From positions 11,067-75,066 of the forward strand of contig DAOUGB010000068.1 of assembly GCA_034429595.1 (NCBI GenBank): 64,000 bases of DNA, in the 5' to 3' direction. Made by a program: the position numbers and the translations under genes. Source of the stretch: Dehalococcoidales bacterium (GTDB lineage Bacteria; Chloroflexota; Dehalococcoidia; Dehalococcoidales; RBG-16-60-22). Below are positions 20,682 through 56,244 of the stretch, piece by piece (the first letter of the stretch is position 1; each line of letters begins with the position of its first letter). The notes under the pieces were generated by a model, which searched no databases, was not told the DNA's origin, and was given only the letters and a program-made list of their open reading frames with translations.

Positions 20682-20757
20682 GGGGATATAGCTCAGCCGG
20701 GAGAGCGCTGCGTTCGCATCGCAGAGGTCGGGGGTTCGAATCCCCCTATCTCCACCA
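20682..20757 (+). tRNA. tRNA-Ala (anticodon CGC), CCA encoded
   Basis: The 76-nt cloverleaf was folded by eye. The acceptor GGGGATA/TATCTCC contains the G3:U70 alanine identity pair. The anticodon stem is ctgcg/cgcag with loop ttCGCat. The T-arm is gggggttcgaatccccc. Confidence 0.9.
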
Positions 20758-20811
20758 GTTAACTGGTAAAACCCGGGTAAAACCAGCTGCTTCCATTTAC
20801 CAATGACCGAG

Positions 20812-21747
20812 TTATCTCATAAATGAGTATTGGCTATTATTGTTAAAGAACCCGTTACGAGATAACGAACTCAAGACCCTTTGTTGCTTGGACGGCTGTA
20901 CAGGATTAGGATTTGCCACCAGGTATAAGTCATTGGGCGGATTCCACCAAGTTCTTGGTTGACTTGAATCATTCATGTGAAGACGCCGCCATACACTCAA
21001 CATTTCAGGGAGGGGAAGAGAGTTGTCCTTTATCACGTCAGGGAGATCATGACAACAGAAAGTGGAAGTCGGCCAGCCCCTAGACGTGAGTCGGTGTTGT
21101 AAAGACGCCAAGAGGTCGGCCTTTGCGTCAGGCTCGATTACTAAAATCATCTTGGACTCTTGCTCTTCATAGTCACCAAGCGCAGCCAGTAAAGGACTCC
21201 AGTCGTCAAAGCCATATGGGAAGCAAGCAGAAAAGACGACCAAATCATAGGTCGCGAAGCTTATAATGTTCTTTGCCAAGTCTATAATTGAGCCTTGTCT
21301 ATATGAAGTCGAGACACGGCGCCAACAGTCAGAACATTCGGAGAAAAGGATCATTTCCGGGCTTGGCTCGATTCCCATGAGGCTGACATGTTGAGGGAAA
21401 TCCAGTAAATCCACTGCGATGGCTGTCGCTCCGGTTCCACTTCCAATATCAAGTACCGACTCCGGATACCAGCCATCAAGCACGGAAAGTAATGATCCGA
21501 AAATAGAAACGATGCGCCTTGGCATATACTTGAGAGCGTAAACGAGAGGAAGGCCCGGCATACTATAATCAGGTTCTCTACCTAATCTTAACTCGTCTAG
21601 CTCATCACCTAGCTTCTGTGTATTGATAGGTATCCGACGTATGGCAAGTTTGCGCAAGTAGCTAAGCGCCGCTTCTGCAACTGCTTTATCTAGCCTTTCA
21701 TGGAGTCGCCGCCATTCGTAATTACTAAGGGTATCAAGTGTAAGCAT
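20812..21747 (-). CDS. class I SAM-dependent methyltransferase (Rsm22-like layout)
   Basis: 311 aa. It has a SAM-binding motif I (VLDIGSGTGATAIAV) preceded by LVYALKYMPRR. The region is visibly AT-richer than its flanks. Confidence 0.6.
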   Translation of the reverse strand: MLTLDTLSNYEWRRLHERLDKAVAEAALSYLRKLAIRRIPINTQKLGDELDELRLGREPDYSMPGLPLVYALKYMPRRIVSIFGSLLSVLDGWYPESVLDIGSGTGATAIAVDLLDFPQHVSLMGIEPSPEMILFSECSDCWRRVSTSYRQGSIIDLAKNIISFATYDLVVFSACFPYGFDDWSPLLAALGDYEEQESKMILVIEPDAKADLLASLQHRLTSRGWPTSTFCCHDLPDVIKDNSLPLPEMLSVWRRLHMNDSSQPRTWWNPPNDLYLVANPNPVQPSKQQRVLSSLSRNGFFNNNSQYSFMR

Positions 21748-22101
21748 TCGTCTTCACCGCCTTAACTGAATTTTTATCAACAAATAATAGAACATATGTT
21801 CTTCCAATTAAGGCTTAGTATAACCTGTTCCACTTCGAAAGTCAACACATTGTTGTCACTATTTTTATTCACACCTTGAACATTATTCGAAAATCACTGC
21901 CATACCTGCTTTCCGATATTATTCAAGGCTGGAAGCATCTTACCTAGCTGGTTATCTACCAGATTTGAAACCAGATGTTTAATGGCTTAGTCAACCATAG
22001 AGTGTATATTTTGTATCAATTCAAAAGGTGACTTGTAATTTTCAAGTATATAAGGTAGACTAGGTTTCAGAACAATAGTTCTTACTGGAAGAAGCAACGA
22101 A

Positions 22102-23277
22102 ATGTCTTACGCTGAACAATTGGACCTACTTGGACAACGAGCGTTCACGCCCTCGTTACCAACAGAATACAAACCCGTTCGCTCTGCCCACTTTCAGCCG
22201 TCGCAGATTTGTTTAGCCAAAGGTAGTATGACCACATACGAACGTAGGTCATTTGTCAAACGTATCTGCGATCTCTACCCGGAAGCGCAGGTGAAAGAAC
22301 GGTTTGACGTGCCTCATAACCAGATAGAATTGGGCGGACAAGAGCCTTTGAGTCTGCATCGCACCGGGAAACAAACGCTTGTGTTCGGTGAGCTTACATC
22401 GGCGGTGCGTTTTGCCGAAGAGAGGGGAAATGCCTGCCCCAACTATTGGCATTTTTCTCCTTATGGATTCTGCCCGTATGATTGCAAGTACTGTTACCTG
22501 GCCGGGACGCCAGGAGTCAAGTTCTCTCCTTCGGTCAAGATATACGTGAACTTACCTGAAATGCTGCAACGTATCGATGTCATTGCACGGAAACTTGCTA
22601 CGCCAACGGCATTCTACCTCGGAAAGCTACAAGATTCCCTGGCACTAGACTCTCTCACAGCTTACACAACAATCCTGGTGCCTTTCTTTGCCGAGCATCC
22701 CTGGGCACGTCTTACACTTCTAACGAAGAGCGCTTACATTGACCGGCTGTTGGATTTAGACCATCGCGGGCACTCTATCCTTTCATGGAGCGTGAACCCG
22801 CCGGAAATATCGGCTTTCTTTGAGGAAAACGTCCCCAGCATCGATGAACGTCTAGAGGCCATGCGCCGTGTTTCTGATCGCGGTTACCCTGTGCGCGCTA
22901 TCATGATGCCTATTATCCCCATTGACGGCTGGCAAGATAGGTATAGCGCATTCACGACGCACTTGCTTAAGACTGTACCCATTCAGCGTTTAACCCTCGG
23001 CGGTATCTGTATTTACCGAAGCGCTCGCGACCTTATGGAGACAAAGATGGGGGTACGGAACGTAGTGTCGGGGCACATCGACCATGTATCTCCCAAAGCA
23101 GAAGACGGGAGGGCGCGCTATCCTCGCAGTTTCCGCCACGAAGCCTACTCGCTGATTATCCAGTCCGTGCGAAAACTTCGCCCGGACCTGGGCATTGCTC
23201 TTTGTCTGGAGGAACAAGAGCTTTGGGAAAGTACCGGGCTCGCAGGAAACATAGGACGGTGTAATTGCCTCTTGTAA
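22102..23277 (+). CDS. radical SAM protein, spore-photoproduct-lyase / DNA-photolyase (COG1533)-like, copy 1
   Basis: 391 aa. It has a CxxxCxxC motif (CPYDCKYCYLAG), a TIM-barrel-like remainder and a C-terminal GRCNCLL. Confidence 0.7.
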   Translation: MSYAEQLDLLGQRAFTPSLPTEYKPVRSAHFQPSQICLAKGSMTTYERRSFVKRICDLYPEAQVKERFDVPHNQIELGGQEPLSLHRTGKQTLVFGELTSAVRFAEERGNACPNYWHFSPYGFCPYDCKYCYLAGTPGVKFSPSVKIYVNLPEMLQRIDVIARKLATPTAFYLGKLQDSLALDSLTAYTTILVPFFAEHPWARLTLLTKSAYIDRLLDLDHRGHSILSWSVNPPEISAFFEENVPSIDERLEAMRRVSDRGYPVRAIMMPIIPIDGWQDRYSAFTTHLLKTVPIQRLTLGGICIYRSARDLMETKMGVRNVVSGHIDHVSPKAEDGRARYPRSFRHEAYSLIIQSVRKLRPDLGIALCLEEQELWESTGLAGNIGRCNCLL

Positions 23278-23584
23278 AGAAGAGGATGCATTTGCTAAAT
23301 GCCAGCTAAGCGCCACAGGAGGAGGATCGAATTCCCCATCCAAGAGAGGTTGTAAGGGATTTACTATCGGATTATCCGGCTCTTTATTACTGAACATTCT
23401 GTTAAAAAAGTCAAGTAAACTGCCGGACAATAAAAGTTAAAAATTAATAAGCCAACATGATTGCCCGGGTACGGCCTGTTTTACACTAAAACGGACTTAA
23501 GATAGAGTTTGGAAAAGCCCCCAGGGTTAACAGATTTTTAGCAGCTTGACTCTATAGCCCAGGAAGATTAGCACCCTACATGCT

Positions 23585-23665
23585 AAGGATGAATTCCAGT
23601 TTAAAAGTTCTGCCTATTGACACCCCTTCCCCACCAAGTCTGGTAAAACCCTCGGTAAAACTGAC
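23585..23665. repeat. degenerate copy of the tRNA-Ala 3' end plus its downstream flank (att-like)
   Basis: ccccttccccaccaagtctggtaaaaccctcggtaaaac compares with tRNA/flank ccccctatctccaccagttaactggtaaaacccgggtaaaac. Its 5' part (aattccagtttaaaagttctgcctattgac) matches the 56-bp repeats at 27576 and 51721. Confidence 0.55.
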
Positions 23666-23670
23666 CTCAA

Positions 23671-24075
23671 TTAAGCTTTCTTAATGGCTTTCTTTGGCTT
23701 TGCCTCGAAGAGTTTTACTACCCGCTCTTTTAAATAGCGCTGAACGTAAGAATTAACCGTTCCATCAGGGTAAATAATACGATTCCCGATAAGCAGTTTC
23801 ATCTTTTTCGCCAAAACGTAATCAGCGACTGAAATATCTGCTTTTTCCTTTAATTCAACAAGGGAAAATATAGTATTTTCCCAAAGCCATTCCCAAACCT
23901 CTCTTTCAGAACAAGCGGTAAGTTCGGTTGGTTTTTCTGCCTGTTTTATATCAAGTAAAGTCCATGTGATAATTATCTTAATAAGTTCAGGGCTATCCGC
24001 TATCAAGAGGACTACTTCAGGCTTTTCATCCTGTTTGAAATAATTTAGTTTTTCAGCAAATATAGCTTCAGACAT
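23671..24075 (-). CDS. hypothetical protein (134 aa), last gene of the islet-2 operon
   Basis: ORF only, with no recognisable motif. Its start lies 3 nt after the stop codon of the preceding gene. Confidence 0.4.
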   Translation of the reverse strand: MSEAIFAEKLNYFKQDEKPEVVLLIADSPELIKIIITWTLLDIKQAEKPTELTACSEREVWEWLWENTIFSLVELKEKADISVADYVLAKKMKLLIGNRIIYPDGTVNSYVQRYLKERVVKLFEAKPKKAIKKA

Positions 24076-24084
24076 ATCTAGTCC

Positions 24085-25250
24085 TCACAAAACGCAGTTA
24101 CAATGCCCTTGATTGGTTTCAATTCCGCTATTTCTCCACAAAGCTTCTTCTTCAAGACATAAAGCAATTTTAAGGTTAGGCCGGTGTTTTTTAGCGACTG
24201 CAATGATATGACGATACATCTTGGTTCTAAGCGAGGCAGAGTAGCGGTTTCTGCCATCTGGCGATCCAATCTTTCCATGTTTATTGATATCGAATTATGG
24301 GAACCCATCTTTACTTCCATTAATGCCCGCGCAACTTTGTAGCTACATATACCGCCAAGAGTAAGCCGTTGTAAAGGTATGGCCTCAACCAAGTGCCTTG
24401 TGAACGAGGAGTAAATATTTCGCCATCCGGCAACAGGAATAATAGGCATCATGATTGCACGTATATGATAACCTGCTGAAGCCGCCTTAAGCATCGCTTC
24501 CAAACGTTCTTCAATGCCTGGCACATTCTCCTCAAATACACTGCTTATCTCCGGCGGATTTACACTCCACGATAAAATAGAATGTCCTTTATGTTTGAGC
24601 CCTAACAACCGGTCGACATTAGTACTTTTTGTGAGTAAGGTTAGACGTGCGTAGGGATGTTCTGCAAAAAATGGAACCATTACGCTGGAGTAAGCCGTTA
24701 ATGGATCAAGTGCTAAAGAATCCTGGAGTTTCCCTAAATAGAAAGCGGCAGGTTTCTGCAAGCGTTGGGCAATCTGGCCTATCTCCTCCAAAATCTCTGG
24801 CAGGTTCACGTATATTTTGACTGTTGGAGAGAACTTTACTCCTTGAGTGCCGGCAAGGAAACAGTATTTACAGCCATACGGACAGAAACCGTAAGGCGAG
24901 AAATGCCAATAGTTGGGACAGGTGTTACCTGACTCTTCGCTAAAGCGTACGGCTGTTTTCAACTCACCAAAAACCAAGGTGCTTTTGCCGGCTCGATGTA
25001 GCGCAAGCGGTTCTTTATCTGGTAACTCAATGCGATTGTGAGGAGTATCAAGGCGTTCATTAATTTCCACTTCAGGGTAGAGTTTGCAGATACCTTCCAC
25101 AAATGCCCGGCGTTCCGGTGTAGAGATACTTCCTTTTGCCAGGTAAATACGGGAAACCTGAAAATAATCCGGGCGAACAGGAGTATAGTAGGTAGGAAGA
25201 ACAACCTTCGAATTTGTAAAAAGGCTAATTTGAGAGTCATTGTTTTTCAT
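24085..25250 (-). pseudogene. SPL-like radical SAM gene, copy 2, with frameshift near 24263-24268
   Basis: About two-thirds identical by eye to copy 1 over about 330 aa (CPYGCKYCFLAG). The track frame then diverges. A different frame reads SPDGRNRYSASLRTKMYRHIIAVAKKHRPNLKIALCLEEEALWRNSGIETNQGHCNCVL*, which aligns with the copy-1 C-terminus. Confidence 0.7.
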
Positions 25251-26332
25251 GGATTCCTAACCGCCTTATTTCCGGTCAAATTCTCCCAACGTTTTACGAT
25301 TATATCGCAATAAGCGGGATTCATCTCCATTAAAAATGCTTTTCTTGATGCTTTTTCAGCAGCAATCAATGTCGTACCTGAACCTCCAAAAGGTTCGAAA
25401 ATTTTATCTCCGCTACCACTATATGCCTGCATTGAGCGATAAGGAATTTCAACAGGGCAAACTGCAGGATGCCCGAATATTTTCATTTGATTGGTCACAG
25501 CGGGTATTTCCCAAACATCGGTATGGTATTTTGCCATATAATCTCGACCCTCTCGCGTCATCTTTGGCATATCGCCCGTTTTCTGATAGACTAATAACGC
25601 TTCCCATTCGAATGCGGGATAATAACATGAATTACGCTGGATATGAAAGTTCCTTGGGGTCGCGTAATTCGCGGCCGTCTTTTTCCAAATGATATTATCG
25701 AGAAACTGGAACCCAATTTCTTCAAAAAGTCTTGAGTGATGACTTACGTGGTTATGATGAGTAGTACATCCATTGCCTATGTTCCACACACAAACGCCCC
25801 CATTTTTAAGAGTAGCGTGGCAATTCCGGATAATTTTCTGCATATCTTCAAGATAAGCTGAATAATCTTTCCAATGCGAGTAGATTTTTTGGTTAAAATA
25901 TGGGGGACTGATCAAGTTCAGGTATTATGTTCTCATCTTCGTTATCATCTATGATAAATCTTCTTATTTCCTCATCGCTGAATCCCATACTTTTAATATC
26001 TATATCCTCTGACCGTAATTCTTCTAAAATTTCCCTAAGCTTTGGGAAGTCCCAATCGGCAATTTCAGCGGTTTTATTATCGGCAATAGCAAAGGCTTTC
26101 CGCTTGGCATCTGTCATTTCAGTAATGATTACAGGGACTTTCTCCAAGCCAAGCCTCTGCGCGGCTTTCCAGCGCGTATGGCCGGCTATAATAGTCATGT
26201 TCTGGTCACAGAGAATAGGAGCATTAAAACCATGCTTTCTGCGACCGCATCCACAGCCTGGTCGTTTATTCTAGGATTTTCCTCCCAGGGATTTAACTTA
26301 TCTGTTTCTATCTCTCGAATCTGAAGCATCAT
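25247..26332 (-). pseudogene. ParB-like nuclease domain :: N4/N6 DNA methyltransferase, split into three frames
   Basis: Frame a reads MMLQIREIETDKLNPWEENPRINDQAVDAVAES. Frame b reads HGFNAPILCDQNMTIIAGHTRWKAAQRLGLEKVPV (ParB N-terminal domain). Frame c reads LISPPYFNQ...FEPFGGSGTTLIAAE (SPPY and FxGxG methyltransferase motifs). Its stop codon overlaps the start of SPL-like copy 2 (ATGA). Confidence 0.7.
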
Positions 26333-26361
26333 TATTTCTCTTCTATAATTAATCACCAAAC

Positions 26362-27372
26362 CTAAAGCAAACTTGGCTGGTTGCTATATTCCGGCCACTC
26401 TCCTGTAATATTGCATCTACCACCGATATCAGGATTCATACATCCGCAAACGGATAAATTTATGTCATATTTTTCAGCCACATGCCTGAAATGAGCATAT
26501 ATTTCTTCTCTCTTTGATAGTGGTAAAGGAATAATGGAAGAATGTTCAGCATACACTATTAAGCGCCCTTCGCTTTTATAATAAGCTAATAATTCCCCCA
26601 ACATTTTATTATCAGCTATACGCCGTTTCAAAGAGGCGACAATAGCCGGCCTCAAGAAAAGCGTGCTTATAGCGGCACGTTTTACTCCGGTATTCGCTAT
26701 CGCTCTTAACAATTTCTCGATTGAGCCAGGTTTATCGGTGATACCGGGGATAATAGGAATAATGCGTGCCTCTGTAACTATCCCGCCTTCAACAAGCCTC
26801 GCCATTTGTTCGAGGCGTGCGCTCGTGCTCGCAGCGTTTGGTTCAAATACGCACCGTATGCCTTCATCCACCGTAATTATTCCTATCTGTATCCTTACAT
26901 AATCAGCATGAGCCAAAAGGAACTTGATAGTCTTTTCGGGAATATAGCCTTTAGTGAGAATTGCGACGCCTACGCCTCTGGATAGTAAATATTCCAATAT
27001 AGAGAGACTAAGTTCTATCACATCTGAAACGGGTTGGAAAATATCACTTGATGGACTGAAATATACCGCTTGAGGTTTAATTCGTTTACTTGAAAGTTCA
27101 CCTTTTATTTTATCCAGCGTATTTTCATAAACAACAACTTTGTTTCCTCCGGGGAAAACACTGTACCCGCGTGCATAACAATAGAGGCAATCATGGGCGC
27201 ATCCTGCGGTAAGATTGACCGCTGGAATATGAGCCAAGCAAGCTAGACTTGACGATGAAAGAACAGTAGATTTACGCTTGGTTTTAATAATACTTACTAT
27301 GGACATCATATAATCTGGATAAGAACGTTTGTTCGGTTTACATATTATAGCATCCAATTTTGCGGGACGCAA
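26362..27372 (-). CDS. radical SAM protein, COG1533 'DNA repair photolyase'-like, third paralogue class
   Basis: It has the motif CAHDCLYCYARG. It runs about 300 aa from the internal ATG at 27309. The track start at 27372 is a TTG. Confidence 0.7.
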   Translation of the reverse strand: MRPAKLDAIICKPNKRSYPDYMMSIVSIIKTKRKSTVLSSSSLACLAHIPAVNLTAGCAHDCLYCYARGYSVFPGGNKVVVYENTLDKIKGELSSKRIKPQAVYFSPSSDIFQPVSDVIELSLSILEYLLSRGVGVAILTKGYIPEKTIKFLLAHADYVRIQIGIITVDEGIRCVFEPNAASTSARLEQMARLVEGGIVTEARIIPIIPGITDKPGSIEKLLRAIANTGVKRAAISTLFLRPAIVASLKRRIADNKMLGELLAYYKSEGRLIVYAEHSSIIPLPLSKREEIYAHFRHVAEKYDINLSVCGCMNPDIGGRCNITGEWPEYSNQPSLL

Positions 27373-27575
27373 GATATATTGGTCACCAATTATGACAGCC
27401 TTAAGGCATAAAGCGGAACAATATAGGATGAGTTTTACAATTTAACCAACATGGTAAAACCGCAGCCAGGTTCCCCGGAGTTATCTTAATCATGTGATTT
27501 TTTATAAGTCCACGTATTATTAAAGATATAGCAAACAATAATTCCCCGCATAAGCAATAGAGAGCTATTCAGTTT

Positions 27576-27631
27576 TGAGGCTAAATTCAAGCTCAAAAAT
27601 TCTGCCTGTTACCACCCTATCTCCACCAAAG
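27576..27631. repeat. 56-bp direct repeat, left boundary of the eCIS block
   Basis: tgaggctaaattcaagctcaaaaattctgcctgttaccaccctatctccaccaaag differs at 3 positions from 51721-51776. It ends with 14 nt identical to the tRNA-Ala 3' end (ccctatctccacca). Confidence 0.8.
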
Positions 27632-27711
27632 GGTATCAATAGGCAAAAAGCATTTACAAGCAACATTAATATCAAGAGGACGGCCTCTCCTGATTACTTT
27701 TGCTGTTCCAA

Positions 27712-42694: not shown

Positions 42695-42705
42695 TACGGG
42701 AGTCT

Positions 42706-43158
42706 TTATAATGCCCGCGTACCGCTTAGGTCAGGCGCCGTAGCCTCATTGACATAGAAGGGGTAAACCATGTTGAACCGGGAATTCGTGGTCCTGATGG
42801 TATAATCAATCTGCACCAGCAGCACGCCGGGCTGGTCTTCAGCTTCAGTAACGGATACATCGTTCACCTTTATCCGAGGCTCGTGTTTGAGCAAAGCATC
42901 GGAAACCGATGAGCGTATGTCCGCGGTAAGGCGCTCGTTCATCTCCCCGAAAACGAACCGGCTTAAATCGCAGCCGAAATCGGGATGCATCAATCGCTCG
43001 CCGATACGGGTCGATAGTATCAGCGTTACTGACTGGGCGATATTTTCGCTCCCGGATACCATCACGACGCCTTCGCCCCCACCGCCGAATTCCGGGGGAA
43101 AACTCCACCCCGTTCCGATATAAGCGCTTTCACCTTGGGTCGGTTCCTCATTTTTCAT
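42706..43158 (-). CDS. GPW/gp25-like baseplate wedge protein (Afp9 class)
   Basis: It carries GTGWSFPP...IAQSVTLILSTRIGERLMHPDFGCDL, the gp25 lysozyme-like family pattern. Confidence 0.85.
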   Translation of the reverse strand: MKNEEPTQGESAYIGTGWSFPPEFGGGGEGVVMVSGSENIAQSVTLILSTRIGERLMHPDFGCDLSRFVFGEMNERLTADIRSSVSDALLKHEPRIKVNDVSVTEAEDQPGVLLVQIDYTIRTTNSRFNMVYPFYVNEATAPDLSGTRAL

Positions 43159-43177
43159 GACGCATACGCCTCCCCGC

Positions 43178-44977: not shown

Positions 44978-44980
44978 TTT

Positions 44981-45658
44981 CTAGTCCTTCACGGGAGGAA
45001 AGTTAAGCGTTTTTCCCGGTTCCAGTTTTCTAAAATTGTTCAGCCCGTTAGCCAAGGCAATCTGGATATAATATGCAGGATCGTTATATACTTTAGCCGC
45101 CAGCAGCGGCAGGGTATCGCTGCCGGCAATCATCCTGACATGCGTCAGATCGGCGGATTCCTTCTGGACGCGCTTGGAAGGCTGTAAATCCCCCTCGAAC
45201 TCCGTATTCAGTTCGGCGCGGAGCGGCTGGCCGCTCCGGTTGAAAAGGGTATACTTGATTTCCACCGACGCCAGCCGGCAATCGAAGTTGAGGTCTCCCC
45301 ACTCCACCTTCAGGTACTTGGGCTGGTGCAGCGCCTCATCCATGTAGCAGGTCATTTCCAGGAACTGCTGCACCTCTTTATAAACGTCCTTGCCGCCGCC
45401 GAGCAGCTCAATGCCGTAATCAGTGACGCCCGTGTTATCCAGGATAAGCGTAACCGTTAGCTTATGCGGCTTGCTCAATGAATAACGGGCCTCCCGTCCA
45501 TCCGTATCGATGCCCTGAAACTTCTGGTAGACGTTAACGTAATTGAGCGAATAGGACTGCGGGTTGAACATCGCCTCAAAGACCCCCTGGGGCGCGCCGC
45601 TCCGCCCCGCGCTGGAATACGCCGCTATTTTCAGTTTTTGCAGTTTAATCGTAACCAA
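44981..45658 (-). CDS. LysM-domain CIS tube-initiator-like protein (Afp7 class)
   Basis: It has an N-terminal tube-like domain and a C-terminal LysM domain (HVRMIAGSDTLPLLAAKVYNDPAYYIQIALANGLNNFRKLEPGKTLNFP). Confidence 0.8.
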   Translation of the reverse strand: MVTIKLQKLKIAAYSSAGRSGAPQGVFEAMFNPQSYSLNYVNVYQKFQGIDTDGREARYSLSKPHKLTVTLILDNTGVTDYGIELLGGGKDVYKEVQQFLEMTCYMDEALHQPKYLKVEWGDLNFDCRLASVEIKYTLFNRSGQPLRAELNTEFEGDLQPSKRVQKESADLTHVRMIAGSDTLPLLAAKVYNDPAYYIQIALANGLNNFRKLEPGKTLNFPPVKD

Positions 45659-45681
45659 TGTGTCTTCCCGTCCCGGTAAGA

Positions 45682-45849
45682 TTACCTTTCCTTCTGTCTC
45701 TCAAGTATCTTCAGCACCTGCTCCACGCATTCCGCGATAATTTCCTTTTCACCGGTGTCATCATATCCGGTTTGCGAGCGTTCTCTCCCTACCCCTTCTC
45801 CCCCGGTAATAGTTGCCCTGATGATTAATTCACGTATCTCGATCGGCAT
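45682..45849 (-). CDS. small conserved eCIS protein, DUF5908-like (55 aa), not in the ORF track
   Basis: My own translation gives MPIEIRELIIRATITGGEGVGRERSQTGYDDTGEKEIIAECVEQVLKILERQKER. The ATG lies 2 nt after the tube-2 stop codon and is preceded by TAAGGA. The position between tube and LysM genes is typical. Confidence 0.6.
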   Translation of the reverse strand: MPIEIRELIIRATITGGEGVGRERSQTGYDDTGEKEIIAECVEQVLKILERQKER

Positions 45850-45851
45850 GA

Positions 45852-46334
45852 TTAAATCCTTAAAATCTGAAAGCGGGTGTAGGCGAGTTCCATGGTATCT
45901 ATCACCACGGCGTTGGCCGCCGCATCAAGGTCAGATACGGACCACTTGACCGGATAGGCTTTGAGAAACAGCCAGTTGGCGATGGGGAGGCTATGTTCGC
46001 TTAACAGGCTCACCATGACATTGCTCGGCGCGAATTTAAAGAGACTCATCGCGACATTGAATTCGATATTCAAAGGCGAGCCGATGACCATACCCCTTTC
46101 CAGCTTCAGGTTTTCATAGGTCATGCCTTTCGGCAGGCGGTGGGTAAAAAGGTTTTCCCCGCCTTCCGTCAGCGGTTCCGTTTCCACGGTAGCTGTTATC
46201 CCGGATACTTTTTGAAACCGGATATCCAGCGGGTTAGGGATAACTCCCCCCGCAAAAAAGGTCACCTGAAAGTAATAACCTACCGGAGGATTTTTGGTCA
46301 GCGATAGTTCCGGTAATGCCAGACCACCTACCAT
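45852..46334 (-). CDS. phage T4 gp19-like tail tube protein 2 (Afp5 class)
   Basis: It carries the tube-family pattern YYFQVTFFAGG...FQKVSGITATVETEPLTEGGEN. Confidence 0.85.
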   Translation of the reverse strand: MVGGLALPELSLTKNPPVGYYFQVTFFAGGVIPNPLDIRFQKVSGITATVETEPLTEGGENLFTHRLPKGMTYENLKLERGMVIGSPLNIEFNVAMSLFKFAPSNVMVSLLSEHSLPIANWLFLKAYPVKWSVSDLDAAANAVVIDTMELAYTRFQILRI

Positions 46335-46455
46335 AATCTTGTCCTTCTTTCGTATTTTCCCCGGCTGGCCGGCGGCGGCCAGCTACGCTGCCTGCCTCTA
46401 TCGTTGGTTGCCAGCAGCGTAACCGACCGTTTTTTCAACCTGGTCATCCGCAGGA

Positions 46456-46917
46456 TTAGTGGTACTCAATAGAAAGGCTGTCCGCTCTTAAATCCAGGCT
46501 CTCGATGGCGACATCGTTGCTGGTAGCATCGAATGTGGGAGCCTCCATTTTCTTGGGGAAGGCATTGGTGACTTTCCATGACACCACCGGGGCGTCACTC
46601 TCGTCCATGAGGGATATGGTGACATCTTTCTTGACCACGGTATTCAGATTGATGGTATTAATCCAGTCAAAGAGCTTCTTATCCCCCCTGACGATGCCTT
46701 TCTTCATGGTTATATCTACCGGCGAACGCTGGCCGGGCATGTACTTGGCGCCTTCTTTATGGCTCAAGCCGTCTTTATAGGTTATCGGGTCTTCATAGCC
46801 TATGGTCAGACCTGATACTTCCCTAAAAGCGATGGGGTCAAGCCCGTCAATCTTGACGCTGTAGTAATAAACGGGCAGCGGGTACTTGGTTTTGATATCA
46901 CTTACCGTAGTTGCCAT
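46456..46917 (-). CDS. phage T4 gp19-like tail tube protein 1 (Afp1 class)
   Basis: It carries YPLPVYYYSVKIDGLDPIAFREVSGLTIGYEDPITYKDG. Confidence 0.85.
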   Translation of the reverse strand: MATTVSDIKTKYPLPVYYYSVKIDGLDPIAFREVSGLTIGYEDPITYKDGLSHKEGAKYMPGQRSPVDITMKKGIVRGDKKLFDWINTINLNTVVKKDVTISLMDESDAPVVSWKVTNAFPKKMEAPTFDATSNDVAIESLDLRADSLSIEYH

Positions 46918-46949
46918 TGTTCTAACCTCCTTCTATCACATGGTGTAGG

Positions 46950-48884
46950 CTAGGCTTCCTGCATCTTGTGTGAGAATCTCAGGATAATGAACTCCGCCGG
47001 GCGGACCGCCGCGATGCCGACTTCGATAATCATGCGGCCCTCCAGGATATCCTGCTCCGTCATGGTGACGCCAAGGCCGACCCGGACAAAGAAAGCCTGC
47101 TCCGCCTTCGAACCTACCAGCGCCCCATGGCGCCATAGCCCTTCCAGATAGCTCTCAATCATCGCCTTGACTTTCAGCCAGGCCATCGCGTCGTTGGGGC
47201 CGAAAACGGCCCACGCGGTGGATTTCTTGACGGATTGCTCTATCATGATGAAAAGCCGACGGACCGGGATATAGCGCCACTCATTATCGTTGCCGGCCAG
47301 CGTCCGCGAACCCCAGATTAACACACCCTGGCCCGCGAACCCGCGGATGGCGTTGATGGACTTTCCGGCCGTCGTGTCTATGTTCAGGTTCTCCTGGTCA
47401 GCACTGGTGATTTTTACCATCGGTTTGATGGTAGCCATCACTCCCTCGTTGGCCGGCGCGCTCCACACGCCGCGGGTGCGGTCGACGCGGGCATATACCC
47501 CGGCAACCGCCGCGCTCGGCGGCAGGATGACACGCTGTTTGCCCAACCCGGCTTTAATCTTGTTGTACAAAGCCGTTGATTCCAGCCTGATAGCGGTATG
47601 CCCCAGATAAAAGGTCTCTCCGTCCGCCTGGTAGTAAACGAGCGGGCTGGGCCCGGCCGCCGCGGATATCGTCGGTTGGGAATCGAATTGCTCAAGGTTG
47701 AATTTGCCTTTATTGCCGCTCCAGCCGTTCCAGGCGGCGATAATATCTTCCACGACCCGCCCGTCATCGGGGAGGGTAATCGTGAGGATATTTTTGGTAG
47801 TATCGGCCTCAAACGCTATGACTTTCCCGCTCATCTTGACCTCGGCCGAGGCCGCGGGCGTAGCTTTGCCGCGATAGGTGACCCTTAAATCGGAAATTTC
47901 CAATGGAGTGGGTTTAGCGCCGCCGGTACCGGCGGAAATGAAGGTGGTCCGGTGCAGATGGAAGTTGCCGCCGACACCCTTGGACGCCCAGGCCGCAACG
48001 ATATTATCCACGGTATCGCCGCCGCTCTTGAGCGTTATCTTCAAGGTATTGGTAGCTTCGTCCAGCGCGAAAGTGGGGGTGGTAACATCACCGATGATTA
48101 TCTGCGCTTTGGGAGCCACGGCCGGCTGGCCGGTATAACCGATGCGGAGGTTCCCGATGAAAAGCTCACCGTTTTTATCCACGAATCCCTGAATGTTCAC
48201 CGTCTCATCGGTATAGTAATGATTGATTGATGTTTGGAGATAGGGATAATAAGCCGCACTGTACTTGAGGTCGCCTACGATGTTATTGCGGAAGGCCTCC
48301 CCGATTTTACCCCGGCCGTCATTATCATCCGCCAGCACGTCAAAAATGGCGAAGCGGTCGTGCAAATCGCTGCATTGCTGCAGAGAAGACTGGCACAGTT
48401 CGTAGTAATCGGAGGCGGCCAGGTTGACGGCATCCGTCAACAGAATCAAAGTCGGCTCATCCTCTTTCCGCAGGGCGTCAAGGCCGGCCTGAAAAGCCTT
48501 TTTATCCAGGGTCTGGCTGTAGTTCCCTACGGAAACGACGTAGCAGGGTCCGCCGCCGTTCTTGAAATAGAGGTTAAGGCAATAGTAAAGCAAAAACGGT
48601 GGACTGGGTGTGTCGGAGATTTGGATGGAATCAATATCGCGGTTACCCTGCTCGTCCGTCACCAATTGTATGTTAAAGTTGCTGACGGGGGAACCGCCGA
48701 ACATGGAATTATAATCGAGGAGACTGGAAATGCGGGTAGGTTTATTCAACAAGTTTTCATCACCGAACTTGGCATACTCCGTGTAACCGATGAAAGCGGG
48801 AATTGCGGTAGCCACTTCAGCTACCGATGGCGGAAGAAGTGATATTTCTTCCGTATATACCCCTGGCGTCTTATAAGTTGCCAT
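46950..48884 (-). CDS. contractile tail sheath protein (Afp2-4 class)
   Basis: It has the typical sheath N-terminus MATYKTPGVYTEEIS and the C-terminal sheath core GVWSAPANEG...INAIRGFAGQGVLIWGSRTL. 644 aa with an internal duplicated insert. Confidence 0.9.
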   Translation of the reverse strand: MATYKTPGVYTEEISLLPPSVAEVATAIPAFIGYTEYAKFGDENLLNKPTRISSLLDYNSMFGGSPVSNFNIQLVTDEQGNRDIDSIQISDTPSPPFLLYYCLNLYFKNGGGPCYVVSVGNYSQTLDKKAFQAGLDALRKEDEPTLILLTDAVNLAASDYYELCQSSLQQCSDLHDRFAIFDVLADDNDGRGKIGEAFRNNIVGDLKYSAAYYPYLQTSINHYYTDETVNIQGFVDKNGELFIGNLRIGYTGQPAVAPKAQIIIGDVTTPTFALDEATNTLKITLKSGGDTVDNIVAAWASKGVGGNFHLHRTTFISAGTGGAKPTPLEISDLRVTYRGKATPAASAEVKMSGKVIAFEADTTKNILTITLPDDGRVVEDIIAAWNGWSGNKGKFNLEQFDSQPTISAAAGPSPLVYYQADGETFYLGHTAIRLESTALYNKIKAGLGKQRVILPPSAAVAGVYARVDRTRGVWSAPANEGVMATIKPMVKITSADQENLNIDTTAGKSINAIRGFAGQGVLIWGSRTLAGNDNEWRYIPVRRLFIMIEQSVKKSTAWAVFGPNDAMAWLKVKAMIESYLEGLWRHGALVGSKAEQAFFVRVGLGVTMTEQDILEGRMIIEVGIAAVRPAEFIILRFSHKMQEA

Positions 48885-48944
48885 ATGGTCTTCCTCCTGT
48901 ATATCGTTATTCTTGGTGCGTTTTACCTTTGAGAGCAGGCAACC

Positions 48945-49589
48945 CTACTTTCCCGGTTGCCCGGATGTGTCAAACCTAGTCCTCTCACCGGCATTTTCAG
49001 CCCCTTGGGAATCAATTAATTTTAATTCTCTCGCTTTCACCTCCTTAGTCTTTTCCGGTGTATGTACATCAACGCTTAACGTTATCTGATAGTTAACGGC
49101 AACTCTGGGCTTGACACCCATCGCCTGCCAGAAAGGCCCCATATTGAAATGCTCCGGCTGCAGCGCCTCTGCCCTGATTATCGTGGCCGTGCCGTCTTTA
49201 AGGCTACCATAGAGCATCTCCCGCGGGAAACTGCGTCCCTTCAGCAGAGCTTTCATGGCCTCACCAAGCAGACGGTGCTCTTCCAGCATGTGATTCGGCG
49301 AGCTCTCACTCGTCCAGACCGTCATGATATAAAAGCACTCAATCTGGGTCTGGGGTTTCTTTACAACGCCGTCATCCGCTCTCCCTTTTTCCCACGTCCA
49401 TTCCGTGCTACGGAGTTCCAGATTCTCCAGGACCATGTAAAGAAAAAGATTAATTGCCGGCAGTTTTACCCAAGCCGGCGGGAATTTACCATCCGGCGGG
49501 TCAAAACTAATCGCCACCGATTTTAATAAATCAGGGTCAAGGTTCTGCTTCAGCAGGTTTTCCAGGGTTTTATCCAGGTCGCCAAACAT
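48945..49589 (-). CDS. DUF4255 tail terminator/cap protein (Afp16/Pvc16 class)
   Basis: The N-terminus LDKTLENLLKQNL...ISFDPPDG...LPAINLFLYMVLEN matches the DUF4255 pattern. It is the first gene of the operon. Confidence 0.8.
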   Translation of the reverse strand: MFGDLDKTLENLLKQNLDPDLLKSVAISFDPPDGKFPPAWVKLPAINLFLYMVLENLELRSTEWTWEKGRADDGVVKKPQTQIECFYIMTVWTSESSPNHMLEEHRLLGEAMKALLKGRSFPREMLYGSLKDGTATIIRAEALQPEHFNMGPFWQAMGVKPRVAVNYQITLSVDVHTPEKTKEVKARELKLIDSQGAENAGERTRFDTSGQPGK

Positions 49590-49624
49590 GCCGTTATTCC
49601 CTCACCGTTACCCTATCGTTGCGG

Positions 49625-49852
49625 TTATTCATCATTCTCATCATCCGCTTGGGAAGTAACACGATAATCCCGCTGACCATTTGCCGGGTATCCGGGAGAC
49701 GGGCTCAGGTGACTCATAATGAATTCCACCATCTTTTCCGTGGTGATGAAATACGTGGCGTCCTGTGAGCCCACATGTTGGATATACCCTCTAAATTTAG
49801 CTGTAGCTTCATTGGTCCAGATTTTTACTATGAAAGAATTGTATTGCCCCAT
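49625..49852 (-). CDS. small hypothetical protein (75 aa) upstream of the eCIS operon
   Basis: ORF only. The segment NSFIVKIWTNE...FRGYIQHVGSQDATYFITTEKMVEFI resembles a widespread family of small uncharacterised proteins (recollection only). Confidence 0.45.
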   Translation of the reverse strand: MGQYNSFIVKIWTNEATAKFRGYIQHVGSQDATYFITTEKMVEFIMSHLSPSPGYPANGQRDYRVTSQADDENDE

Positions 49853-50061
49853 GTCATTTCACAAAAAGACTTTCCGTCACCAAAGACGCCTGCGGAATTC
49901 ATACCAAAGGCTAGAAAACGATAACACGCCGCGGTTAAGCCATAATTAATTGACAGTAAAAAATGAGTTGCAGGAAACAGGCGGGGAGTAATGCCTTAAG
50001 ATACCGGGCCAATCATGAAACTATTTCTCAAAATTCAGCGGCTTATCACCGCGATGAACGT

Positions 50062-51111
50062 TCAAATAGTCTCATCATTGATCAGACGGCGATAAAGGGA
50101 AATGGTCAGGGACTCGGGTTTGACCCCCAGTTCGGTGGTGACAGTTTTTTCACAGACCTTATACCATTGCATGGCGCGGTTGCGCTGACCGATGCGGCTG
50201 TAGCACCGCATCAGGTGACGGTAACCTTCCTCACAGCAGGGGTCTTTGGCCAAAATTTTACGGCAGAATCCAATGCAATTCTCGTAATCGGCCGCCTGGG
50301 CGGAATACGTGGCAAGTTTAATCAGAATATTCAGGTAAGTATCTTTTAAAGCCTCCCGCCGCATCAATGTCCAATCTTCGTAGAGATCTTCTTCAAGGTA
50401 ATCACCTTTGTAAAGACTCTCAGCAGCCAGATAGGCGGCGATGGCGCCGGGGAAATTCCCCTCACTTTCATGACGCTGCCCTTTCAACCATTGCTTTTCA
50501 AATTCCTCGTCGTCAATCAACAGCGTCATGTTCGGGTTAATCAGATAATGGTCATCAACAAAATGAATGTACACAAAGCCGTTCCTCTCTTGGGAAACCG
50601 CGCCGAGCGTCTTCCTCAAGGAGTGGATCGCGGTTTTAAGATTACTGTTCGCTACATCCGGCGGACAGCCCTGCCACAGGGCTTCCATGAGGATATCCTT
50701 GGAAATAAGATGCTGGCGCTGGGCTATCAGGTATTTAAAGACAGCTTTGGCTTTAAGGCTGTACCACTGTTCGACCCGGCGGCAATCAACAAACACACTA
50801 AAATTACCGAGGCAGTTGACCTGCAGGCATGAAGTAGCTCCGTCTAAATCCTGTTTGTAAACTTCTGAAGGCGTAATTTCCAAAACATCCCGCAACTGAC
50901 GTTCAATGGCGTTTTCCCGGCCGCTAAACAGCGAGCAGACTTCCTCTATCTGTTTCCTGGCTTGCTGGTAATCATGATGCACGGTGTGTAATAAATCAAC
51001 CATAATCTTCCATTGTTTCCGGGTAGTTGCTTCGCTTCCCTTTTCTGTGTTCCTCATTTCCATACCTCGGCTAACTCCTTTTCCAAAGTAGGCGTAAAGG
51101 GGACCCCGCAA
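50062..51111 (-). CDS. SARP/AfsR-type transcriptional activator (winged helix + BTAD domain)
   Basis: It has an OmpR-like wHTH (LQVNCLGNFSVFVDCRRVEQWYSLKAKAVFKYLIAQRQHLISKDILMEALW) followed by a TPR-like BTAD domain (YKGDYLEEDLYEDWTLMRREALKDTYL). The true start may be the ATG at 51063. Confidence 0.75.
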   Translation of the reverse strand: MRGPLYAYFGKGVSRGMEMRNTEKGSEATTRKQWKIMVDLLHTVHHDYQQARKQIEEVCSLFSGRENAIERQLRDVLEITPSEVYKQDLDGATSCLQVNCLGNFSVFVDCRRVEQWYSLKAKAVFKYLIAQRQHLISKDILMEALWQGCPPDVANSNLKTAIHSLRKTLGAVSQERNGFVYIHFVDDHYLINPNMTLLIDDEEFEKQWLKGQRHESEGNFPGAIAAYLAAESLYKGDYLEEDLYEDWTLMRREALKDTYLNILIKLATYSAQAADYENCIGFCRKILAKDPCCEEGYRHLMRCYSRIGQRNRAMQWYKVCEKTVTTELGVKPESLTISLYRRLINDETI

Positions 51112-51720
51112 AGAAAAGCCATGTATCAGAAAATGGTACCGGATGAAGAAGACTCCGAGGAATAAGCGATATCTTAACTTATGGCCGCGTTAAGCATCCT
51201 AGTTGCCCACTTGCCGGGCTAACAGGGCAAAAAAGTGCCTTCTGTCCATAATGACCTTACTCTATACCTGTGATTTTGTCAACAATTGACTTGAACCTAA
51301 AAATCACACTACTTTTTCAACCTGTTTTATGAATATAAAAATAGCCTGAATTGGCAAGGCGCAAATAGTTGGCACCGGTATCAACTATTTATTAAAGCTG
51401 TAGTATTTAGAAACAAATAGAATTATTATGCAAGGTAATTATGGTTAATAATGATGGCAGGCCAATTTATGATGAAGCATTTGAAAACAAAATACATCAG
51501 GCAGCCGAACAGATAAAGCTAGCGATAAAGGACTAAGCAGCTTGCTTCATAGCGTAACAGCTGTTCTAGGACTACCGGCACCCGAGGAGTACATTAATGA
51601 TAAATTCAAGCAAGACCTTTCTAGTATTAACGCTCAAGAACTAAAGGAAAAAGCTGCATTTTAAGATAAGCGGTTACTGCAAACATAGCTATATTGCCGG
51701 AGGCCTATTACCCTTTACAG

Positions 51721-51776
51721 TGAGGCTAAATTCAAGCTCAAAAGTTCTGCCTGTTACCCCCCCATCTCCACCAAAG
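51721..51776. repeat. 56-bp direct repeat, right boundary of the eCIS block
   Basis: tgaggctaaattcaagctcaaaagttctgcctgttacccccccatctccaccaaag. See 27576-27631. Confidence 0.8.
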
Positions 51777-52016
51777 CTATCCTGCGCAAACCAACAGGAT
51801 GCATAAATCCATTCTTTTATGTTTATCCAGCAAAAACTAAAGCTTTTTTATCTTTTTCCCAAGATTTTATTAAACTCTATACTATTATTTTAAAAATTTC
51901 TCTAAAATTACGAGAATTATGTTCTAGAAATATGTTACACTATTGCCAGATATTACGTTCACCAGACCTGATTACGTTGACGCCACAACAACAAAGAAGG
52001 GAGATATCTCGGGCAA

Positions 52017-54119: not shown

Positions 54120-54179
54120 GGATAAACATCTTCCGCATTTTAATTTATCGCGGACATCCCGTATAATAGTTATATCCCT

Positions 54180-55750: not shown

Positions 55751-55920
55751 TTGTTATTCGTTTTTTTAAATTTTTTTACACCCTCTTAGCTTTGACTTGA
55801 AGCTGATTTGTTTTTATTTGTTTTATGTTAAATCAGCTAAGAGCTATCAGTTTTCAGCTATCAGTATAGAGGGGAAAGGGCAAATTGTAAACAGGCTTTT
55901 GTCATAGAAAAATCCCCCTT
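55751..55920. repeat. about 180-nt mosaic intergenic repeat, copy 2
   Basis: See 2961-3146. Confidence 0.7.
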
Positions 55921-56077: not shown

Positions 56078-56081
56078 GGCT

Positions 56082-56206: not shown

Positions 56207-56244
56207 AGCCCCCTTTAACAAAGGGAGATAGAGAGGGATTTCCT

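What the first reader, a model, noticed from the sequence alone, without database searches (positions are those of the whole stretch)
20682..51776. Tandem accessory islands at tRNA-Ala delimited by repeats that contain the tRNA 3' end; the eCIS block is flanked by a 56-bp direct repeat and has no integrase
The last 14 nt of tRNA-Ala (ccctatctccacca) recur inside a longer repeat at 27576-27631. They recur with 1 mismatch at 51721-51776, and more degenerately at 23585-23665. The 23585-23665 copy also reproduces the tRNA-downstream flank ctggtaaaaccc..ggtaaaac. The copies at 27576 and 51721 differ at only 3 of 56 positions and bracket exactly the regulator plus eCIS genes. The segment 20.8-27.6 kb is visibly AT-richer than the surrounding DNA. 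This is the classic signature of serial site-specific integration at a tRNA gene. However, I found no integrase, excisionase or transposase ORF anywhere in the 31 kb, so the array may be immobilised or mobilised in trans.
Basis: partly seen in the sequence, partly recalled or inferred. Interest (0 to 1): 0.7.

Follow-up and report, generated by a model that had tools for sequence, protein, structure and literature searches.

The report
Serine-recombinase island array at tRNA-Ala
Three accessory gene blocks, one of them a 24-kb phage-tail-like injection system, sit in tandem behind a tRNA-Ala gene, and each ends in a scar that is the severed 3' end of a large serine recombinase gene; this island-building mechanism is already known from Dehalococcoides.

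Summary
tRNA-Ala(CGC) lies at 20682-20757. A 56-nt direct repeat at 23584, 27576 and 51721 contains the tRNA's last 14 nt. These repeats delimit two AT-rich islets and a regulator-plus-eCIS block, and the window has no recombinase.

The repeat is not a dispersed repeat, an RNA or a plain displaced tRNA end. On the minus strand every copy encodes GG..GRTFELEFSL plus a stop. That peptide is the C-terminal tail of full-length large serine recombinases (LSRs) whose ORF runs across attP. The repeats are therefore attR-type scars: the P arm of attP plus the core.

In the same metagenome, a strain 99.8% identical to the window carries such an LSR abutting this tRNA, with the junction right after CCA. 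Related genomes keep both flanks but lack window 20758-54180.

This is the tRNA-Ala counterpart of the Dehalococcoides ssrA and tRNA-Ala tandem islands (McMurdie 2009, 2011), including islands without a recombinase. It is a new member of a known kind with an eCIS cargo.

Whether the array can still move is not shown. The eCIS block is host-like in composition, and no sample shows it missing.

The parts
20682..20757 (+). tRNA-Ala(CGC), the integration target (B half of attB). The sequence after CCA differs between haplotypes.
   Evidence: Rfam tRNA, 69.5 bits. L002 diverges from the window exactly after 20757. L035 has a 98.7% identical tRNA abutted by another recombinase.
20763..20784 (+). Left-end motif of island 1, CTGGTAAAACCCGGGTAAAACC. 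It is repeated at the left end of island 2 and next to the tRNA in L014. Its role is unexplained.
20758..23639 (.). Island 1 (2.9 kb, GC 0.47): a SAM-methyltransferase-like gene at 20812-21747 (-) and an SPL-like radical SAM gene at 22102-23277 (+).
23576..23635 (-). attR1: remnant of the recombinase 3' end (P arm) plus core. It encodes GGEGVSIGRTFKLEFILSM*. The repeat copy is 23584-23639.
23640..27631 (.). Island 2 (4.0 kb, GC 0.41): a 134-aa gene (23671-24075 -), an SPL-like radical SAM gene (24078-25250 -), a split ParB_N / N6_N4 DNA methyltransferase (25247-26198 -) and a radical SAM gene (26362-27372 -).
27565..27627 (-). attR2: remnant of the recombinase 3' end plus core. It encodes GGDRVVTGRIFELEFSLKTE*. 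The repeat copy is 27576-27631.
27632..51776 (.). Island 3 (24.1 kb, GC 0.53): eCIS genes at 27712-49589 (-) and a BTAD/SARP regulator at 50062-51111 (-).
51689..51772 (-). attR3: remnant of the recombinase 3' end plus core. It encodes GGDGGVTGRTFELEFSLTVKGNRPPAI*; the canonical stop is lost and the core has 1 mismatch. The repeat copy is 51721-51776.
51777..54180 (+). The segment after the last repeat, containing a HisKA_7TM/PAS histidine kinase (52017-54119). It is also absent from L022 and L024 and is compositionally atypical. No repeat closes it on the right.

Best explanation
The window comes from an uncultured Dehalococcoidales bacterium. Its tRNA-Ala(CGC) 3' end is the attachment site of integrative elements that carry a large serine recombinase (LSR) related to the XisF, CcrB and DsiB families.

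In these elements the recombinase gene sits at the element end and reads across attP. The conserved protein ends ...GSGxVxxGG, where GG is the antisense of CCACC in the tRNA end. The last 17-19 codons and the stop lie on the other side of the crossover, in the P arm.

Integration splits the gene. At attL the ORF runs into the antisense of the tRNA. At the far end of the element (attR), the orphaned 3' coding fragment is left joined to a tRNA-like core ending in CCACCA.

The three 56-nt repeats in the window are such attR scars. They therefore record at least three integration events, or the arrival of composites, that stacked island 1, island 2 and the eCIS island behind the tRNA.

None of the islands has kept its recombinase or an attL-type site. 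On its own, the array in this haplotype cannot excise.

It could be moved only if a recombinase-bearing element sits at the tRNA, as in haplotype L002. That element's attL could then pair with any of the downstream attR sites. This is accretion, or cis-mobilisation, as proposed for recombinase-less ssrA islands of Dehalococcoides.

What is shown: the identity of the repeat with the recombinase tail; P-core-P' continuity in L034; polymorphism at the tRNA; the empty sites in relatives.

What is inferred: the order of events, the loss of the recombinases, and any present-day mobility.
For: - The minus-strand translation of all 8 independent repeat copies reads GG(D/A/E)G.(T/I)IGRTFELEFSL.. with the stop at the distal edge of the conserved block. 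This covers the 3 window copies and L014-L017 and L019.
- Full-length LSRs end with the same tail: P0047 ...GSGAVTSGGDGVTIGRTFELEFSFTL and P0022 ...GGAGVTIGRTFELAFALTF.
- In L034 the DNA shows P arm, core and recombinase coding sequence as one continuous stretch.
- Variable columns inside the block include synonymous third-position changes: GAG/GAA, CTT/CTG/CTC, TTT/TTC and CTC/CTG/CTA.
- Other family members end in antisense-tRNA tails. The window-type tRNA-Ala(CGC) tail occurs in L002, P0060 and P0093.
- L002 is 99.83% identical to the window over 10.9 kb. It switches to an LSR gene directly after CCA, while L028 from the same sample has island 1 there.
- Contigs break at the tRNA in at least 3 samples.
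- L024 is an empty site. L022 carries a 19-nt direct-repeat scar.
- L014 is a different Dehalococcoidales MAG. It has tRNA-Ala(CGC), a 3-kb island and the same repeat.
- Islands 1 and 2 are compositionally foreign.
- Dehalococcoides shows the same architecture at ssrA and at tRNA-Ala (PMC3146451, PMC2764846).
Against: - There is no recombinase gene or recombinase remnant at the left end of any of the three islands. Those ends carry GGTAAAAC repeats or AAGGGTATCAATAGGC, not recombinase coding sequence. Loss of the recombinases must therefore be assumed.
- The right end of the L002 element was not recovered. It is not shown that it lies in front of the array or that its own P arm is of this type.
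- The eCIS block has host-like composition (tetranucleotide correlation 0.91). It is present in all five samples seen.
- The 20 nt after attR2 resemble the tRNA flank of the closest relative, L021. This could mean the eCIS left edge is old chromosome.
- The region missing from L022 and L024 extends past the last repeat to about 54180.
- The rest of the source genome could not be scanned for further copies of the repeat.
Confidence: 0.78

Rival explanations
1. The repeats are serine-recombinase scars, but only islands 1 and 2 are recent insertions. The eCIS block is long-resident, effectively chromosomal DNA and not a discrete mobile unit. The copy at 51721 is the relic of an ancient event, kept similar to the 27576 copy by gene conversion.
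For: - The eCIS block has GC 0.53 and a tetranucleotide correlation of 0.91 to the backbone.
- It is present with identical junctions in all five samples.
- The sequence right after attR2 (27629-27648) resembles the native-looking tRNA flank of L021.
- The 51721 copy has lost its canonical stop and has a core mismatch.
Against: - The block is absent at this locus from L021, L022 and L024.
- It ends in a P arm plus core, like the other islands.
- Host-like composition is also expected for transfer between close relatives.
Confidence: 0.15
2. These are classical tRNA-targeting genomic islands made by tyrosine integrases, with integrase genes since deleted. The shared 40 nt would then be arm-type binding sites.
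For: Direct repeats of a tRNA 3' end are the textbook signature of tyrosine-integrase islands. No recombinase of any kind is present in the window.
Against: - The 40 nt are the 3' coding end of serine recombinases, and they are continuous with such a gene in L034.
- The recombinases seen abutting this very tRNA are serine recombinases: L002 and L035.
- No tyrosine integrase appeared in any related locus.
Confidence: 0.04
3. The 56-nt sequence is a dispersed repeat (REP or MITE-like) or a small structured RNA or integron-attC-like site that happens to resemble the tRNA end.
For: The window does contain unrelated dispersed hairpin repeats at 15441, 55967, 56204 and 63518.
Against: - The window has only three copies, all in one orientation downstream of the tRNA.
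- Each of two species-representative genomes has one exact-pattern copy.
- There is no stable fold (z from -1.6 to +0.9), no covariation and no Rfam hit.
- The minus strand carries a coding signal.
Confidence: 0.02

Closest known systems
Dehalococcoides ssrA-specific genomic islands (McMurdie et al. 2011, PMC3146451)
   Same: - Tandem islands lie downstream of a small stable-RNA gene and are bounded by direct repeats of its 3' end.
- A conserved motif that does not match the target lies just upstream of each repeat.
- A ~500-540 aa serine recombinase sits on the reverse strand, with its 3' end overlapping attL and its stop lying outside the island.
- Many islands lack the recombinase and were proposed to be cis-mobilisable.
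- The authors already suggested that a neighbouring island could supply 'the requisite 3' gene fragment'.
   Different: - The target here is tRNA-Ala(CGC), not ssrA.
- The host is an uncultured non-Dehalococcoides Dehalococcoidales lineage.
- The cargo is an eCIS and radical-SAM/methylase cassettes, not reductive dehalogenases.
- The six-gene integration module (DsiA, RecF-like, ParB, Mom and others) is not present in the window.
- Direct sequence comparison with DsiB was not possible.
tRNA-Ala-associated genomic islands of Dehalococcoides (McMurdie et al. 2009, PMC2764846)
   Same: [quoted passage not shown] The authors proposed tRNA-Ala as a key recombination site. A D. mccartyi-labelled assembly carries a recombinase 96% identical to the L002 one.
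   Different: The paper does not describe the 40-nt coding arm or an eCIS cargo. Here the array has three recombinase-less units.
SCCmec / CcrAB cassette arrays in staphylococci
   Same: Both use a large serine recombinase; CcrB is the second-best NCBIfam model, though far below its cutoff. From my own knowledge, not tested here: SCC elements insert at the 3' end of one conserved gene, leave 15-20-nt direct repeats, form composite tandem arrays and include ccr-less pseudo-SCC elements.
   Different: The target there is a protein gene (orfX/rlmH). Two recombinases, CcrA and CcrB, are needed. The recombinase ORF does not span the attachment site.
Cis-mobilisable elements (CIMEs) and accretion at ICE attachment sites
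   Same: Blocks flanked by att-type sites, lacking recombination and transfer genes, are stacked next to an autonomous element that can excise them as a composite. The concept is cited in PMC3146451 and reviewed in PMC5704250, which I listed but did not read.
   Different: The classic cases use tyrosine integrases. In this window every retained site is attR-type and there is no attL, so mobilisation needs a newly integrated element.
Phages with attP inside a coding gene (integration-dependent immunity; recalled from memory: Broussard et al. 2013)
   Same: Integration changes the C-terminus of a protein encoded across attP.
   Different: In those phages the gene is the repressor and the integrase is a tyrosine recombinase. 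No functional consequence of the tail swap is shown here.

Membership tests
Dehalococcoidia serine-recombinase tandem islands at tRNA/tmRNA genes (ssrA-GI type) | Islands lie directly downstream of a tRNA/tmRNA gene and are bounded by direct repeats of its 3' end, several in tandem | tested here: met
   The tRNA is at 20682-20757. The cores are at 23623-23636, 27615-27628 and 51760-51773.
Dehalococcoidia serine-recombinase tandem islands at tRNA/tmRNA genes (ssrA-GI type) | A conserved motif not derived from the target lies immediately upstream of each repeat | tested here: met
   A ~40-nt block is conserved in 8 independent copies with unrelated flanks. It encodes the recombinase tail.
Dehalococcoidia serine-recombinase tandem islands at tRNA/tmRNA genes (ssrA-GI type) | A large serine recombinase on the reverse strand next to attL, with its 3' end overlapping attL | tested here: not met
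   It is absent from the window. It is met in the co-occurring haplotype L002 and in L035-L037 at a 98.7% identical tRNA. The window's units therefore correspond to the recombinase-less subclass described in PMC3146451.
Dehalococcoidia serine-recombinase tandem islands at tRNA/tmRNA genes (ssrA-GI type) | The recombinase is homologous to DsiB/CcrB | tested here: inconclusive
   The proteins have Resolvase and Recombinase domains. The best NCBIfam models are XisF and CcrB, far below their cutoffs. One family member is 59% identical to a D. mccartyi recombinase. No DsiB sequence was available for direct comparison.
Dehalococcoidia serine-recombinase tandem islands at tRNA/tmRNA genes (ssrA-GI type) | Strain- or lineage-specific presence that interrupts conserved synteny | tested here: met
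   L022 and L024 keep both flanks and lack 20758-54180. L002 and L028 differ within one sample.
Dehalococcoidia serine-recombinase tandem islands at tRNA/tmRNA genes (ssrA-GI type) | Excision to a circular intermediate and re-integration | not testable with these tools
   This needs read-level junction analysis or experiments.
Tyrosine-integrase tRNA genomic islands | A tyrosine integrase gene adjacent to the tRNA or within the island | tested here: not met
   No Phage_integrase hit in any ORF scanned. The recombinases found at this tRNA are serine type.
Integron cassette array | An IntI integrase and attC sites that fold as imperfect hairpins | tested here: not met
   There is no IntI. The 56-nt copies fold no better than shuffles, and the alignment shows no compensatory pairs.
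Dispersed REP/MITE repeat | Many copies at unrelated loci, often with terminal inverted repeats | tested here: inconclusive
   This is not seen in the 64-kb window. Each of two species genomes has one exact-pattern copy. The rest of the source genome could not be scanned.
Extracellular contractile injection system (the cargo of island 3) | Sheath, tube, baseplate (gp25, J), VgrG spike with tip, tape measure, AAA ATPase and a Pvc16/Afp16-like cap in one operon | tested here: met
   Pfam hits for all of these at 27712-49589.

The most novel reading that the evidence does not exclude
The recombinase's C-terminal tail is encoded across attP. The protein would then differ between the integrated state (an antisense-tRNA tail) and the excised or tandem state (a GRTFELEFSL tail), giving a built-in sensor of integration state.

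On this reading the three orphan tails in the window are functional 'spare 3' ends'. An incoming element could use them to excise with 0-3 downstream islands, which would make a 24-kb eCIS a cis-mobilisable cassette exchanged among Dehalococcoidia.
Probability: 0.2. Interest if true: 0.6.

Novelty: new member of a known kind. Interest (0 to 1): 0.4.

Why it matters
- It extends the Dehalococcoides island-building mechanism (serine recombinase, stable-RNA 3' end, tandem accretion, recombinase-less units) to uncultured Dehalococcoidales and to a new cargo class, a complete eCIS with its regulator.
- It gives a concrete sequence-level reason for the conserved motif next to such repeats: it is the end of the recombinase gene. 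That yields a simple rule for annotating these islands in MAGs: translate the antisense of the repeat and look for the recombinase tail.
- It defines candidate attP and attB pairs for a family of tRNA-specific serine integrases, which could interest genome engineers.
- It does not reveal a new kind of system.

Tried and rejected
- The 134-aa ORF next to attR1 was tested as a recombinase remnant. BLASTP against P0001 shows no similarity. It is instead part of a widespread three-gene cassette: ParB-methylase, SPL-like radical SAM and the 134-aa protein.
- IMG/VR was scanned for the repeat, for the GGTAAAAC left end and for the L002 attL junction. All three scans found nothing.
- A protein-based scan of viral contigs with P0047 gave one close relative, L038, whose 3' end carries a different tail type. 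It was not informative.
- An RNA or hairpin nature of the repeat was tested with RNAalifold, DNA folding against shuffles and Rfam. There was no support.
- PADLOC on the proteins of islands 1 and 2 gave only generic type II methyltransferase hits.
- The window was searched for recombinase remnants with tblastn and six-frame motif scans. Only the antisense-tRNA stretch and the three known tails were found.
- I tried to find the right end of a complete recombinase element in L020 and L035. None lies within the 10 kb available.
- I looked for homology between window 51777-54180 and the short tRNA-to-ligase spacers of L022 and L024. None was found.

Full report
**What is in the window.** ARAGORN finds a single tRNA, tRNA-Ala(CGC), at 20682-20757.
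- Its last 14 nt recur exactly at 27615-27628 and with one mismatch at 51760-51773.
- They are embedded in a 56-nt direct-repeat family: 23584-23639 (73% to the reference), 27576-27631 (reference) and 51721-51776 (53 of 56).
- The 37-nt non-tRNA part has no other copy in the window at up to 3 mismatches, against 0 expected.
- The sequence after the tRNA, CTGGTAAAACCCGGGTAAAACC at 20763-20784, is echoed after the first repeat at 23640-23661.

Pfam annotation gives the following gene content.
- Left flank: a GreA-like gene at 19835-20650.
- Island 1: a methyltransferase-like gene and an SPL-like radical SAM gene.
- Island 2: a 134-aa ORF, a second SPL-like radical SAM gene (68% aa identity to the first, inverted), a split ParB_N/N6_N4 DNA methylase and another radical SAM gene.
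- Island 3: a complete eCIS operon at 27712-49589 and a BTAD/SARP regulator at 50062-51111.
- After the last repeat: a HisKA_7TM histidine kinase at 52017-54119.

Islands 1 and 2 are compositionally foreign. Their GC is 0.41-0.47 and their tetranucleotide correlation to the backbone is 0.28, while every 3-kb backbone chunk scores at least 0.78. The eCIS block is host-like (GC 0.53, correlation 0.91).

**Source and population.** Exact-protein look-ups place the window in contigs from four JGI metagenomes and one SRA run, at 99.7-100% identity. GreA orthologues and repeat-bearing contigs are labelled Dehalococcoidales.

Contigs repeatedly break at the tRNA. L003 ends exactly at 20757. L004 ends at 20729 and L027 starts at 20728.

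In sample 3300023207 two haplotypes coexist.
- L028 has the tRNA followed by island 1, as in the window.
- L002 is 99.83% identical over 10.9 kb up to the last base of CCA. It then continues into a minus-strand ORF that is the C-terminal two thirds of a large serine recombinase (Pfam Recombinase).

The shared sequence at this junction is too short for a k-mer chimera, so the junction is real (inference).

**Relatives.** GreA orthologues in long contigs all sit in the arrangement FAD-oxidoreductase, GreA, tRNA-Ala(CGC).
- In L022 and L024 (74% aa), the tRNA is followed within about 1.1-1.5 kb by the CoA-ligase, SDR, CoA-transferase and thiolase genes that begin at window 54208 (71-84% nt). Window 20758 to about 54180 is therefore missing there.
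- L024 has no repeat. L022 and L023 carry a 19-nt direct repeat of the tRNA end 90 nt downstream, which is a scar.
- L021 (81% aa) has different genes after the tRNA. Its first 20 nt after CCA, AGGGTTTTAATAGGCAGAAC, resemble window 27629-27648. I cannot explain this uniquely.

**What the repeat is.** A degenerate pattern of the non-tRNA part found one copy in each of two other Dehalococcoidia species genomes and four metagenome contigs.
- In all of them a block of about 56 nt ending in CCACCA is conserved, while both flanks are unrelated.
- In L014 the block lies 3 kb downstream of a tRNA-Ala(CGC). Its last bases, CAGCTCC, match that host's acceptor stem.
- The block has no stable fold, no covariation and no Rfam match.

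The key came from the recombinase family of L002 (189 homologues).
- Their conserved sequence ends ...NAPFAIIARANGSGxVxxGG. After that the tails fall into classes.
- Many tails are the antisense translation of a tRNA. L002, P0060 and P0093 read GGDRGIRTPDLCDANAALSRLSYIP, the antisense of the window-type tRNA-Ala(CGC). tblastn confirms this.
- A second class ends GG.GVTIGRTFELEFS.. (P0047, P0022, P0019, P0030, P0038, P0109).
- Translating the minus strand of every repeat copy in the frame fixed by L002 gives this same tail, with a stop at the distal edge of the conserved block:
 - w27576: GGDRVVTGRIFELEFSLKTE*
 - w51721: GGDGGVTGRTFELEFSLTVKGNRPPAI*
 - w23584: GGEGVSIGRTFKLEFILSM*
 - L014: GGAGVIIGRTFELEFSLTI*, and similarly for the other copies
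- Several variable columns are synonymous third positions.
- In L034 the DNA reads P arm, then CCACCA, then recombinase coding sequence without interruption. That is an intact attP-like site.

The 56-nt repeat is therefore the P arm of attP, that is the recombinase's own 3' end, fused to the core. This is what an integrating element leaves at its far end (attR).

A second, 60%-identical recombinase (P0093; L035-L037) abuts a 98.7%-identical tRNA-Ala(CGC) at the same position. It sits in an element with an HTH/ImmA pair, a DUF3854/DUF927 primase-like gene and a small resolvase. The recombinase closest to L002's (96%) sits in a prophage-like module in a D. mccartyi-labelled assembly, next to a tRNA 3' fragment.

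**Mechanism.**
- Shown: the tRNA-Ala(CGC) 3' end is an active attachment site for this recombinase family in this population. The window's three repeats are attR-type sites of that family.
- Inferred: the three islands arrived by serial integration, or as composites. Each lost the recombinase-proximal end, because no recombinase remnant exists in the window.
- All retained sites are attR-type, and the tRNA is followed by non-recombinase sequence. The array as it stands therefore has no attL and cannot excise.
- An element integrated at the tRNA, as in L002, would provide attL. In principle that attL could pair with any downstream attR and carry islands along (accretion).
- The island left ends are conserved: GGTAAAAC repeats, and the 134-aa gene end is shared between island 2 and the L014 island. 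This hints that recombinase-less islands travel as units, but it is not proof.

**Comparison with known systems.** McMurdie et al. 2011 (PMC3146451) describe Dehalococcoides ssrA islands with these features:
- a 15-bp conserved motif, not derived from ssrA, just upstream of each repeat;
- a CcrB-like serine recombinase, DsiB, on the reverse strand, always overlapping attL with its stop outside the island;
- 15 islands without any integration module, proposed to be cis-mobilisable;
- the authors' suggestion that DsiB may be complete only on the circle or behind a neighbouring island carrying 'the requisite 3' gene fragment'.

McMurdie et al. 2009 (PMC2764846) report repeated tRNA-Ala 3' fragments and recombinases flanking islands in the same genus.

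The present locus has the same architecture at tRNA-Ala(CGC) in another Dehalococcoidales lineage, with a different cargo. The recombinases score best against the XisF and CcrB NCBIfam models but far below their cutoffs. Direct comparison with DsiB was not possible. I therefore file the locus as a new member of a known kind.

**Limits.**
- The rest of the source genome could not be scanned for further repeat copies.
- The far end of the L002 element is unknown.
- No junction reads could be examined.
- The eCIS block shows no presence/absence polymorphism in the five samples and is host-like in composition.
- The region missing from relatives extends beyond the last repeat to include the histidine kinase.
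- The GGTAAAAC left-end motif and the L021 flank similarity remain unexplained.

Noticed in passing
window 23671-26198; L029 7604-10405; L032 7604-10402: A three-gene cassette is widespread in Dehalococcoidales: a ParB_N-N6_N4 DNA methylase (407 aa when intact), an SPL-like radical SAM protein (~388 aa) and a 134-aa protein. The 134-aa protein has 690 homologues. The cassette sits in unrelated contexts without a tRNA, and its methylase is often split, as in the window and in L029. PADLOC recognises only the methylase. It may be an uncharacterised DNA-modification module.
   Followed up: partly
window 22102-23277 (+) and 24078-25250 (-): Two inverted paralogous SPL-like radical SAM genes (68% aa, 68% nt) lie in adjacent islands.
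   Followed up: partly
window 20763-20784, 23640-23661; L014 about 4325-4365 (-): The motif CTGGTAAAACCC-NN-GGTAAAAC lies directly after the tRNA or core at the left ends of island 1, island 2 and the L014 island. It is not recombinase coding sequence, and its role is unknown.
   Followed up: partly
window 27629-27648; L021 10924-10942: The 20 nt after attR2, AAGGGTATCAATAGGCAAAA, resemble the 20 nt after the tRNA CCA in the closest relative, L021. This is either an ancestral tRNA flank or a shared island end.
   Followed up: partly
window 51777-54180: The histidine-kinase segment after the last repeat is also absent from L022 and L024. It is compositionally atypical (GC 0.46, tetranucleotide correlation 0.53), but no further repeat closes it.
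   Followed up: partly
proteins P0001-P0120 (recombinase family): The C-terminal tails after the conserved ...GSGxVxxGG fall into classes: antisense of several different tRNAs, GGRYW[IT], GGPLWTVPELFFEKK... and GRTFELEFSL. This suggests a family that has diversified over many tRNA targets, with the ORF always spanning the attachment site.
   Followed up: partly
L022 10901-10999 (also L023): A 19-nt direct repeat, GTCCCCCTATCTCCACCAA, occurs at the tRNA end and again 90 nt downstream. This is a minimal scar of a lost element in a relative.
   Followed up: yes
L020 (GCA_036677345.1, JAPZBK010000003.1): A recombinase 96% identical to the L002 one lies at the end of a prophage-like module: HTH_3, an M78 peptidase, ORF6N, sigma70_r4, Gp3-like and DnaA/IstB-like genes. 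It abuts a ~36-nt tRNA 3' fragment and is followed by DUF3800, type I restriction-modification and GmrSD defence genes.
   Followed up: partly
window 15441-15477, 55967-56003, 56204-56240, 63518-63554; 55907-56077; 56064-56213 / 62228-62377: A REP-like hairpin family (CTCCCTTT..AAAGGGAG), a 95-nt tandem duplication and a 150-nt dispersed repeat occur in intergenic DNA. They are unrelated to the tRNA repeats.
   Followed up: no
window 28585-28907 and 29951-30407: The eCIS tape-measure gene contains three 108-nt tandem repeats and a ~276-nt internal duplication (76%).
   Followed up: no
window 16063-16734 and 16786-17457: Tandem paralogous cyclase (PF04199) genes, about 72-76% nt identical.
   Followed up: no
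window 19835-20650: The GreA-like protein has a ~120-aa N-terminal extension (271 aa in total). The extension is conserved in length across Dehalococcoidales orthologues.
   Followed up: no
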